Below are positions 42,001 to 43,818 of a DNA stretch of 64,000 nucleotides, in pieces (position 1 is the first letter of the stretch; each line of letters opens with the position of its first letter). This DNA is from Escherichia coli (GTDB taxonomy: Bacteria > Pseudomonadota > Gammaproteobacteria > Enterobacterales > Enterobacteriaceae). Where the stretch lies: assembly GCF_003334405.1 (NCBI RefSeq), contig NZ_QOWM01000002.1; one strand, 5' to 3'. The position numbers are program-made.

Positions 42001-43818
42001 CCAGCAGGAAGGGGGAAATGTTGAAACCCGCGCCTTGCCGGAAGTGAAGGCAGGTGATTATCTGGTACTGCATGATACAGGGGCATATGGCGCATCAATG
42101 TCATCCAACTACAATAGCCGTCCGCTGTTACCAGAAGTTCTGTTTGATAATGGTCAGGCGCGGTTGATTCGCCGTCGCCAGACCATCGAAGAATTACTGG
42201 CGCTGGAATTGCTTTAACTGCGGTTAGTCGCTGGTTGCATGATGACTTGCCTCCAGCGACGGAGTTGACACTGAATGACGACGTACCAGCGTCGGACTAA
42301 AGACATTAGTGATTTCCGGGAGAGGGCGATTATCCGCCAGCGCCAAAGCCAGTTCGGCAGCCTGGGTCGCCATCGTCACGATTGGGTAACGCACGGTGGT
42401 CAGGCGCGGACGCACATAGCGTGACACCAGCACATCATCAAAGCCAATTAACGAAATCTCACCCGGTACATCAATACCATTATCATTGAGAACGCCCATC
42501 GCACCCGCCGCCATTGAATCGTTATAACAGGCTACCGCAGTGAAATTTCTTCCTCGTCCCAAAAGCTCGGTCATTGCCTGTTCGCCGCCGCTTTCGTCTG
42601 GTTCGCCAAATGTCACCAGCCGGTCATTGGCCGCAATACCACTTTCAGCAAGGGCATCGTAATACCCTTGCAGACGATCTTCGGCGTCAGAAATAGAGTG
42701 GTTAGAGCACAGATAACCAATGCGGGTATGACCTTGCTGAATTAAATGACGCGTTGCCAGCCAGGCACCGTAACGATCGTCCAGAGCAATACAACGGTTT
42801 TCAAAGCCAGGCAGGATACGGTTGATCAGCACCATACCGGGCATTTGTTTCATTAATGAGGCTAAATCAGCATCCGGGATCATTTTGGCATGGACGACCA
42901 ACGCAGCACAGCGATGGCGGATCAGTTGCTCAATGGCCTGACGCTCTTTTTGTTCGTTGTGGTAACCGTTGCCAATCAATAAAAAATTACCGGTGTGATA
43001 AGCCACCTGTTCGACCGCTTTCACCATTGCACCGAAAAACGGATCGGAAACATCACCAACGACCAGACCGACCGTTTCAGTGGTCTGCTGCGCCAGCGCA
43101 CGGGCGTTGGCGTTCGGGTGATAGCTAAGAGACTCCATTGCACTATGCACAGCCAGCCGGGAAGCTTCGCTGGCTTTGGGTGAATTATTAATGACGCGGG
43201 AAACGGTGGCGACTGAAACGCCTGCCAGTCGGGCTACATCCTTTATGGTCGCCATGAAAATACCTTAGTGGGTAAACGCTTACATTCTTTCAGTGTTACG
43301 GAAAACGCCCGTTGGTTCAAGGGGTGGCGTGTTTTCATCGTGGGAATGTGAGCCAAACGCAAATAAGTAAGACAAAAAAAGAGATTGCAAACCTTTGGTT
43401 ACACTTTGCGAAACGCTGTTGCGATTGACCGCTGGTGGCGTTTGGCTTCAGGTTGCTAAAGTGGTGATCCCAGAGGTATTGATAGGTGAAGTCAACTTCG
43501 GGTTGAGCACATGAATTACACCAGCCTGCGCAGATGCGCAGGTTTTTTTTGCCGGTCATCAATCTGTAACAGTAACCGACAATTTACACACCTCGTTGCA
43601 TTTCCCTTCATTCCTTTGCGTTTTCTCGCTGGCGAAGAGTCGTCGTGCAGACCACAATCAAGATCCCAGAGGTATTGATTGGTGAGATTATTCGGTACGC
43701 TCTTCGTACCCTGTCTCTTGCACCAACCTGCGCGGATGCGCAGGTTTTTTTTCGCACCTAATTTACTGTCGCTCGCGTTCTTTATCTCGTGTAATCTCCC
43801 TCCATTCGCTTTTACTGA

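What the first reader, a model, noticed from the sequence alone, without database searches (positions are those of the whole stretch)
43469..43752. Tandem paralogous sRNAs OmrB and OmrA between galR and aas
Two about 85-nt RNAs share a conserved 5' end (cccagaggtattgat…) and a near-identical terminator (cctgcgc-gatgcgcaggtttttttt) but differ in the middle. This is the known OmrA/OmrB duplicate pair. The ORF track shows a spurious 75-aa ORF across omrB on the opposite strand.
Basis: partly seen in the sequence, partly recalled or inferred. Interest (0 to 1): 0.35.

Follow-up and report, generated by a model that had tools for sequence, protein, structure and literature searches.

The report
Known OmrB and OmrA small RNAs

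Summary
Confirmed and already known. Window 43469-43550 (+) is omrB (82 nt) and 43665-43752 (+) is omrA (88 nt). Both match Rfam RF00079 over the full model (86.1 and 96.6 bits; gathering score 40) and are identical to b4445 and b4444 of NC_000913.3. They lie between galR (42224-43255, -) and aas (43840-45999, +), as in K-12. The two copies share 20 of the first 21 nt and 32 of the last 35 nt; their middles (26 and 32 nt) are unrelated. The 15-nt 5' seed occurs only at these two sites in the window (0.06 expected by chance). The spacer is present in 5424 of 5426 complete E. coli genomes, and 30 family members were recovered from 19 other Enterobacterales loci, with compensatory changes in the terminator stem. 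The seed is predicted to pair with the ompR, cirA and ompT leaders at the experimentally mapped positions. The promoters match published features: -12T for omrB, -12C (sigma-S) for omrA, each with its own conserved upstream blocks. The 75-aa antisense ORF exists, but it has no family match, is not annotated in K-12 and is not conserved in E. albertii. Nothing departs from published knowledge.

The parts
43469..43550 (+). omrB, an 82-nt Hfq-dependent small regulatory RNA
   Evidence: Rfam RF00079, 86.1 bits, model positions 1-87 of 87. Identical to NC_000913.3 b4445.
43665..43752 (+). omrA, an 88-nt Hfq-dependent small regulatory RNA
   Evidence: Rfam RF00079, 96.6 bits, model positions 1-87 of 87. 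Identical to NC_000913.3 b4444.
43469..43489 (+). Conserved 5' region of OmrB (nt 1-21). Nt 1-15 are the single-stranded seed that pairs with targets.
   Evidence: 20 of 21 nt identical to OmrA. Unpaired in the Rfam consensus structure. Predicted duplexes with ompR, cirA and ompT fall at the published sites. The mut2* seed mutation abolishes control of all targets tested (PMC2588501).
43665..43685 (+). Conserved 5' region of OmrA (nt 1-21), the seed
   Evidence: Same evidence as for OmrB.
43492..43506 (+). OmrB-specific central hairpin (UCAACU-UCG-GGUUGA)
   Evidence: Minimum-free-energy fold. Kept in 9 OmrB-type sequences, with two pairs changed on both sides.
43694..43710 (+). OmrA-specific central hairpin (GGUACGCUCUUCGUACC)
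   Evidence: Its core is present in 12 OmrA-type sequences but with almost no variation, so this set gives no covariation support.
43523..43550 (+). omrB intrinsic terminator: 9-bp stem, 4-nt loop and a U8 tail. The tail is the expected Hfq-binding 3' end (inference from general sRNA knowledge).
   Evidence: Covariation across 28 distinct sequences: 99.6% of cells paired and 3 pairs with compensatory changes.
43725..43752 (+). omrA intrinsic terminator: 9-bp stem, 4-nt loop and a U8 tail
43457..43462 (+). omrB -10 hexamer TAAAGT (-12T, sigma-70 type)
   Evidence: Position relative to the K-12 transcript 5' end. -12T in 12 of 13 species. Role of -12T from the literature.
43392..43427 (+). omrB-specific conserved upstream block (-77 to -42): CCTTTGGTTACACTTTGCG...GCTGTTGCGATTG. 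It is a candidate OmpR/activator binding region (inferred).
   Evidence: Nearly invariant in 13 species. A template starting at -114 supports activation by OmpR-P in vitro (PMC5175337).
43653..43658 (+). omrA -10 hexamer CACAAT (-12C, the determinant of sigma-S dependence)
   Evidence: CACAAT in 9 of 10 species. A -12C to T change abolishes sigma-S dependence according to the literature.
43564..43632 (+). omrA-specific conserved upstream blocks: CTGTAACA at 43564-43571 (-101 to -94), AATTTACACACCTCGTTGCATTT at 43581-43603 (-84 to -62), and TCATTCCTTTGCGTTTTCTCGCTGG at 43608-43632
   Evidence: Conserved in 10 species. Truncating PomrA to -60 abolishes OmpR activation in vivo (PMC5175337), which places the OmpR-responsive part upstream of 43605.
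43335..43562 (-). 75-aa mechanical ORF (TTG start) antisense to omrB and its promoter; judged non-coding
   Evidence: Listed. No NCBIfam match. Not annotated in K-12. Boundaries not conserved in other species.
42224..43255 (-). galR (flanking gene, divergent from the sRNAs)
   Evidence: NF008002, 734.5 bits; K-12 annotation.
43840..45999 (+). aas (flanking gene, same strand, 87 nt downstream of omrA)
   Evidence: NF005959, 1527.2 bits; K-12 annotation.

Best explanation
These are the paralogous trans-acting small RNAs OmrB (43469-43550) and OmrA (43665-43752) of Escherichia coli. Each is an independent transcription unit with its own promoter and its own intrinsic terminator. The response regulator OmpR, phosphorylated by EnvZ, activates both promoters. 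omrA also depends on sigma-S through a C at -12, whereas omrB has a T at -12 and is sigma-S independent; it was recently reported to respond specifically to RstB-RstA in multicopy. The RNAs bind Hfq. Their single-stranded, nearly identical 5' ends (CCCAGAGGUAUUGAU...) base-pair with short complementary stretches at or near the translation initiation regions of many mRNAs (ompT, cirA, fecA, fepA, ompR, csgD, flhDC, flgM, btuB, dgcM, ppc and others). This blocks translation and promotes RNase E-dependent decay. Because ompR is itself a target, the pair forms a negative feedback loop on its own activator. The divergent middles and divergent promoters give the siblings partly different target strengths (for example ppc, where OmrA is more effective than OmrB) and different expression conditions. 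Shown here: identity, family membership, synteny, terminator covariation, seed complementarity to three validated targets, and promoter conservation. Taken from the literature: OmpR, sigma-S and Hfq dependence and the in vivo regulation.
For: Rfam RF00079 full-length hits at 86.1 and 96.6 bits, E-values 2.3e-15 and 6.4e-18. 100% identity to the curated K-12 omrB and omrA; over 7001 nt around the locus there is a single mismatch, which lies outside the sRNAs. galR and aas flank the pair. The spacer is present in 5424 of 5426 complete E. coli genomes, at 99% identity or more in 5304. 30 RF00079 hits were found in 19 of 20 Enterobacterales loci, mostly as tandem pairs 111-117 nt apart. Terminator covariation: 99.6% of cells paired, 3 pairs with both-side changes, 0 of 500 shuffles reach the covariation score, and all slid controls are far lower. 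Seed-target duplexes: ompR -16.3 kcal/mol at -23 to -10 (1 of 500 shuffled seeds as good), ompT -17.2 at +7 to +21 (0 of 500), and cirA -12.7 at -20 to -9 (32 of 500). All coincide with the mapped pairing sites in PMC2588501. The -12T and -12C promoter distinction and the separate conserved upstream blocks are reproduced across species, matching PMC12692685 and PMC13425233. OmpR-P activates both promoters in vitro (PMC5175337). Central-region divergence is linked to differential ppc repression (bioRxiv 10.64898/2026.06.26.734723).
Against: Nothing substantive. Minor points follow. The generic sigma-70 consensus scan found no promoter in 43200-43900, which is expected for activator-dependent promoters with poor -35 elements. 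The cirA duplex is only marginally better than shuffled seeds (32 of 500). The minimum-free-energy fold of OmrB alone pairs part of the seed weakly, unlike the Rfam consensus, in which nt 1-15 are unpaired. The invariance of seed nt 1-15 in my cross-species set is by construction, because that exact 15-mer was the bait. Independent support for seed conservation comes only from the Rfam model consensus and the literature. Expression in this particular strain was not measured.
Confidence: 0.98

Rival explanations
1. The region encodes a small protein: the 75-aa antisense ORF (43335-43562, -) or one of the sense-strand ORFs (43511-43678, 55 aa; 43679-43915, 78 aa). On this reading the repeat would reflect coding constraints.
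For: The ORFs exist mechanically. Open antisense frames of variable length also occur over this locus in other species.
Against: None of the three has an NCBIfam match. None is annotated in the curated K-12 record, which does include very small proteins nearby such as yqeL and ygdT. ORF boundaries, lengths and frames differ from species to species, even in E. albertii. The conservation pattern is that of an RNA with promoter blocks: invariant ends, compensatory stem changes, and a middle tolerant of insertions and deletions. The 78-aa ORF runs out of frame into aas.
Confidence: 0.01
2. The downstream copy is a cis-acting leader or attenuator of aas, a terminator-containing 5' UTR on the same strand 87 nt upstream of the aas start codon, rather than an independent trans-acting RNA.
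For: It is on the same strand as aas and close to it, and a strong terminator precedes the gene.
Against: The element is duplicated with its own promoter-like conserved region in each copy. It matches a curated sRNA family end to end. Its unpaired 5' end is complementary to distant mRNAs at sites validated by compensatory mutations (PMC2588501). The literature describes independent transcription units (PMC13425233).
Confidence: 0.01
3. It is a chance or selfish intergenic repeat (REP/BIME-like or a mobile-element remnant) with no regulatory RNA function.
For: It is a direct repeat in an intergenic region.
Against: There are only two copies in the window, both here. It sits at a fixed syntenic position in 5424 of 5426 E. 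coli genomes, with a median of one place per genome, and across several Enterobacterales genera, unlike dispersed REP elements. Compensatory evolution preserves the stem.
Confidence: 0.003

Closest known systems
OmrA (b4444, formerly RygA/SraE) and OmrB (b4445, formerly RygB) of E. coli K-12 MG1655; Rfam RF00079
   Same: Everything tested: sequence (100%), lengths (88 and 82 nt), order and strand relative to galR and aas, promoters, terminators and spacer.
   Different: Nothing within the locus. The host strain is not K-12. It is about 99.96% identical over the aligned window and retains 8.2 kb of the ETT2 island where K-12 has IS2H.
Single-copy or chimeric Omr loci of other Enterobacterales (Yersinia; here Pseudescherichia vulneris, Enterobacter sp. 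BIGb0383, Superficieibacter electus, Serratia bockelmannii)
   Same: The same seed, terminator and family, with an omrB-type upstream promoter block.
   Different: They have one gene instead of two. The transcript middle is OmrA-like while the upstream promoter block is omrB-like, which suggests recombination between the tandem paralogues. The window carries the full two-gene arrangement.
Other sibling sRNA sets (from general knowledge, not tested here): PrrF1/PrrF2 of Pseudomonas aeruginosa (tandem), Qrr1-5 of Vibrio, RyhB paralogues of Salmonella and Yersinia
   Same: They are duplicated Hfq-dependent sRNAs with a shared seed and overlapping regulons, but separate promoters that integrate different signals.
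   Different: They are unrelated in sequence and respond to different regulators (Fur, LuxO). This is an analogy of logic only, not homology.
5'-end-seed envelope sRNAs RybB, MicC and MicF (as discussed in PMC2588501)
   Same: They use the extreme 5' end as a single-stranded seed against outer-membrane-protein mRNAs and depend on Hfq.
   Different: They belong to different families, are single genes, and have different regulators (sigma-E for RybB). There is no sequence relationship.

Membership tests
OmrA-B sRNA family (Rfam RF00079) | Full-length match to the family covariance model above the curated gathering score (40 bits) | tested here: met
   96.6 bits (43665-43752) and 86.1 bits (43469-43550), both covering model positions 1-87 of 87.
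OmrA-B sRNA family (Rfam RF00079) | Conserved single-stranded 5' end CCCAGAGGUAUUGAU | tested here: met
   Exact in both copies. Unpaired in the Rfam consensus structure line.
OmrA-B sRNA family (Rfam RF00079) | Conserved 3' region ending in a Rho-independent terminator with a U-tail | tested here: met
   9-bp stems followed by T8. 32 of 35 nt identical between the copies. Compensatory changes across species.
OmrA-B sRNA family (Rfam RF00079) | [quoted passage not shown] | tested here: met
   galR and aas identified by NCBIfam equivalogs. The arrangement is identical to NC_000913.3.
OmrA-B sRNA family (Rfam RF00079) | Assignment of each copy to OmrA or OmrB by its central region and length | tested here: met
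   String identity to b4445 (82 nt) and b4444 (88 nt).
OmrA-B sRNA family (Rfam RF00079) | Seed complementarity to validated targets at the mapped sites (ompR 5' UTR, cirA -19 to -10, ompT +12 to +20) | tested here: met
   RNAduplex predictions: ompR -23 to -10, cirA -20 to -9, ompT +7 to +21. ompR and ompT are far better than shuffled seeds; cirA is marginal (compared).
OmrA-B sRNA family (Rfam RF00079) | Transcription activated by EnvZ-OmpR, with omrA additionally sigma-S dependent through -12C | not testable with these tools
   Only the sequence correlates could be checked. The promoters are identical to K-12. -12C and -12T and the upstream blocks are conserved. The experimental evidence is in PMC5175337 and PMC12692685.
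OmrA-B sRNA family (Rfam RF00079) | Hfq binding and Hfq/RNase E-dependent target repression | not testable with these tools
   From the literature only (PMC2588501; PMC12692685). The terminator with its U-tail is compatible.
OmrA-B sRNA family (Rfam RF00079) | Accumulation as discrete ~82 and ~88 nt transcripts | not testable with these tools
   No expression data are available for this window. It was demonstrated for the identical K-12 sequence in the cited papers.

The most novel reading that the evidence does not exclude
The only departures not strictly excluded are these. One of the small ORFs overlapping the locus might be translated, for example the 75-aa frame antisense to omrB or the 55-aa frame spanning the omrB terminator to the omrA 5' end; that would make the locus dual-function. 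Alternatively, the strongly conserved 3' 35 nt might have a further role beyond termination and Hfq binding. No result here points positively to either.
Probability: 0.02. Interest if true: 0.4.

Novelty: already known. Interest (0 to 1): 0.04.

Why it matters
As a discovery it does not matter. OmrA and OmrB have been studied since the early 2000s, have an Rfam family and have been reviewed recently. Its value is for annotation. PGAP-annotated RefSeq E. coli genomes often leave this spacer blank, so a scan should label 43469-43550 as omrB and 43665-43752 as omrA, and should suppress the 75-aa, 55-aa and 78-aa ORF calls. Biologically, the locus is a model for how a duplicated sRNA keeps a shared seed while its promoters and central regions diverge. 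It connects envelope stress signalling (EnvZ-OmpR, sigma-S, RstAB) to outer-membrane composition, iron uptake, motility, biofilm formation and, more recently, central carbon metabolism.

Tried and rejected
1. The generic sigma-70 promoter scan found nothing in 43200-43900. I did not read this as absence of promoters. The transcript 5' ends are known from K-12, and the -10 hexamers sit at the right distance and are conserved.

2. I used the exact 15-nt seed as bait in genome contigs. It therefore gives neither a census of the family nor independent evidence of seed conservation. Only the Enterobacterales loci confirmed by Rfam were used.

3. I looked for covariation in the GGUG/CACC helix. Its four core pairs never vary, so they say nothing either way, and the outer pair (alignment columns 16 and 89) is unpaired in 15 of 28 sequences.

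4. I looked for covariation in the OmrA-type central hairpin. There is essentially none in this 12-sequence set, and Serratia is misaligned. The OmrB-type hairpin shows two compensatory pairs.

5. Coding potential of the three overlapping ORFs was rejected.

6. The first attempt at the duplex script failed on file handling and was rerun successfully.

Full report
OBSERVATION. The sequence at 43469-43752 contains two direct copies of an element on the + strand. Copy 1 is 43469-43550 (82 nt) and copy 2 is 43665-43752 (88 nt), with a 114-nt spacer between them. The copies share 20 of their first 21 nt (CCCAGAGGTATTGAT[A/T]GGTGA) and 32 of their last 35 nt, including the hairpin CCTGCGC[A/G]GATGCGCAGG followed by T8. 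Their middles, 26 and 32 nt, do not align meaningfully. The 15-nt 5' motif occurs only at these two places in the 64-kb window on either strand, even with two mismatches allowed. Dinucleotide shuffles give 0.06 expected, and none of 100 shuffles gave two matches. Both 3' ends are called as intrinsic-terminator-like sites with 9 stem pairs and a 4-nt loop. Each RNA folds more stably than its shuffles, with z-scores of -2.9 and -2.7. The 75-aa ORF on the opposite strand is real as an ORF: 43335-43562 (-), TTG start.

IDENTITY. A gathering-threshold scan of the whole window against Rfam 15 gives three hits. Two are RF00079 (OmrA-B) at exactly these coordinates, with 96.6 bits for 43665-43752 and 86.1 bits for 43469-43550. 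Both cover model positions 1-87 of 87, against a gathering score of 40. The 584-nt spacer between the flanking genes is 100% identical to E. coli K-12 MG1655 and many other strains. It is found in 5424 of 5426 complete E. coli genomes, at 99% identity or more in 5304. The curated K-12 record NC_000913.3 annotates ncRNA omrA (b4444, 88 nt) and omrB (b4445, 82 nt) between aas and galR. String comparison shows that copy 1 equals omrB and copy 2 equals omrA, base for base. The flanking ORFs are galR (42224-43255, -; NF008002, 734.5 bits against a cut-off of 557) and aas (43840-45999, +; NF005959, 1527.2 bits against a cut-off of 886). The window is the reverse complement of K-12 in this region, so the order galR, omrB, omrA, aas on the + strand is as expected. 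My figures of 88 and 82 nt, divergence after nt 21, middles of 32 and 26 nt, and a conserved last 35 nt are exactly those given in the literature (PMC12692685; PMC2588501).

COMPARATIVE EVIDENCE. Using the 15-nt seed as bait in one-genome-per-species contigs returned many chance matches in unrelated phyla along with a set of Enterobacterales loci. Rfam confirmed 30 OmrA-B members in 19 of 20 such loci. In Escherichia albertii, Citrobacter, Enterobacter and Cedecea the two genes are tandem with 111-117 nt between them, and in Serratia grimesii the gap is 185 nt. Several taxa have one copy. In an alignment of 32 members (28 distinct), GGTG (nt 17-20), TT.CACC and the terminator are conserved, while the middle varies in sequence and length. 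The invariance of nt 1-15 in this set is by construction, since that motif was the bait. Independent support for seed conservation comes from the upper-case Rfam consensus and the literature. The terminator helix is supported by covariation. 99.6% of cells are paired. Three pairs show changes on both sides (U-A to C-G, G-C to A-U, C-G to U-A). No shuffle out of 500 reaches the observed covariation score or the count of both-side changes. All slid controls collapse to 18-54% paired. The four core pairs of the GGUG/CACC helix never vary and are uninformative, and its outer pair is unpaired in 15 of 28 sequences. Folded by class, OmrB-type RNAs keep a central hairpin with two compensatory pairs. 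OmrA-type RNAs keep theirs with almost no variation in this small set.

MECHANISM. Steps shown here are as follows.

(i) The first 15 nt, identical in both RNAs, are predicted to pair with K-12 target leaders at the sites mapped by compensatory mutagenesis:
- ompR: -16.3 kcal/mol at -23 to -10, overlapping the ribosome-binding site; 1 of 500 shuffled seeds does as well.
- ompT: -17.2 kcal/mol at +7 to +21; 0 of 500. The published site is +12 to +20.
- cirA: -12.7 kcal/mol at -20 to -9; 32 of 500, so marginal. The published site is -19 to -10.
These results are, and the published positions are.

(ii) The -10 hexamers sit at -12 to -7 relative to the transcript starts. For omrB it is TAAAGT (43457-43462), with -12T. 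For omrA it is CACAAT (43653-43658), with -12C. Across species, PomrA keeps CACAAT in 9 of 10 and PomrB keeps a -12T hexamer in 12 of 13.

(iii) Each promoter has its own conserved upstream blocks. For omrB this is CCTTTGGTTACACTTTGCG...GCTGTTGCGATTG at 43392-43427 (-77 to -42). For omrA these are CTGTAACA at 43564-43571, AATTTACACACCTCGTTGCATTT at 43581-43603 and TCATTCCTTTGCGTTTTCTCGCTGG at 43608-43632. The omrA upstream region begins directly after the omrB terminator.

Steps taken from the literature are as follows. OmpR-P activates both promoters in vitro from templates starting at -114, and truncating PomrA to -60 abolishes activation in vivo (PMC5175337). -12C makes omrA sigma-S dependent, while omrB is sigma-S independent (PMC12692685). 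RstB-RstA in multicopy activates omrB specifically (PMC13425233). [quoted passage not shown] The divergent central regions correlate with differential repression of ppc (bioRxiv 10.64898/2026.06.26.734723), and the regulon has recently been extended to carbon and fatty-acid metabolism (bioRxiv 10.64898/2026.06.26.734639). Two points are my own inference from general knowledge and were not tested: that the GTTACA, TGTAACA and TTTACA motifs in the conserved blocks are OmpR half-sites, and that the U8 tail is the Hfq-binding 3' end.

RIVALS. Three alternatives were considered.

Coding. The 75-aa antisense ORF and the 55-aa and 78-aa sense ORFs have no NCBIfam match. They are not annotated in the curated K-12 record, although that record does include very small proteins nearby. 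Their boundaries and frames are not conserved even in E. albertii.

A cis-acting aas leader. OmrA lies 87 nt upstream of aas on the same strand. However, the element is duplicated with its own promoter in each copy, it matches an sRNA family end to end, and its seed pairs with distant validated targets.

A selfish intergenic repeat. The element sits at one fixed syntenic place per genome and shows compensatory evolution.

One further argument comes directly from the sequence. galR is transcribed away from the spacer and aas lies downstream of it. The two + strand terminators therefore cannot terminate either flanking gene, and they only make sense as the ends of short transcripts that start within the spacer.

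COMPARISON WITH WHAT IS KNOWN, AND NOVELTY. This is not merely like OmrA/OmrB; it is OmrA/OmrB. All sequence-testable defining features are met. The expression-level features (OmpR, sigma-S and Hfq dependence, and discrete transcripts) cannot be tested with these tools, but they were demonstrated on an identical sequence. Novelty: already known. Interest: very low for discovery, with some use for annotation, because PGAP RefSeq records leave the spacer unannotated.

CONTEXT. The window aligns to NC_000913.3 2955854-3012981 in reverse complement at about 99.96% identity. The exception is window 15291-23494 (8.2 kb), which replaces K-12's IS2H and encodes ETT2 type III secretion components. The source is therefore an E. 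coli strain other than K-12.

Noticed in passing
window 15291-23494: This 8.2 kb is absent from K-12, which carries IS2H (NC_000913.3 2996361-2997691) at this point between ygeO and ygeP. It encodes ETT2 type III secretion apparatus genes (PrgH/EprH, EscU, YscQ, SctT and EscJ family). It is 100% identical in strains such as ML35 and is present in 3348 of 5426 complete E. coli genomes. The window is therefore from a non-K-12 strain that is about 99.96% identical to K-12 elsewhere. This is a known ETT2 deletion polymorphism.
   Followed up: partly
L055 421-625 (Pseudescherichia vulneris), L024 8766-8973 (Enterobacter sp. BIGb0383), L021 5298-5504 (Superficieibacter electus): These single-copy Omr loci look like recombinants of the tandem pair, with different junctions. 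P. vulneris has the omrB-type upstream block but the omrA-type core promoter (CCACAATCAAGAT, -12C) and an OmrA-type transcript, which puts the junction at roughly -40 to -19. The other two have an omrB-type -10 (TACTCT, -12T) with an OmrA-type middle, which puts the junction within or just upstream of nt 1-21. This agrees in general with the 'chimeric' single copies reported in PMC13425233. The P. vulneris case implies that the core -10 is not always of the omrB type.
   Followed up: partly
L026 2747-2822 and 4789-4879 (Pantoea stewartii): There are two RF00079 hits on the same strand about 2 kb apart, rather than the ~115 nt seen in Enterobacteriaceae. The first is short (76 nt) and resembles the Erwinia and Tatumella type; the second resembles the Pantoea sp. 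AS-PWVM4 type. What lies between them was not examined.
   Followed up: no
L057 12514-12606 (Serratia bockelmannii) compared with L043 10379-10468 and 10654-10746 (S. grimesii): Within one genus, S. grimesii has two copies 185 nt apart. S. bockelmannii shows only the downstream-type copy, although 12.5 kb of upstream sequence was searched. This points to recent loss or gain of one paralogue.
   Followed up: no
window 43256-43839; NZ_CP032667.1 906777-907360: PGAP-annotated RefSeq E. coli genomes list no feature under the galR-aas spacer, even though both sRNAs score more than 85 bits against Rfam. Only the curated NC_000913.3 record carries omrA and omrB.
   Followed up: yes
window 13925-13995: tRNA-Gly(CCC), which is glyU in K-12. 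It is the only other Rfam gathering-level hit in the window.
   Followed up: yes
window 43469-43752, across the E. coli genome collection: Two of 5426 complete E. coli genomes have no match to the spacer, and 18 more have less than 80% coverage. One genome has two places and one match lies on a plasmid. This may correspond to the omrB loss reported for Shigella boydii-like lineages (PMC12692685). It was not examined.
   Followed up: no
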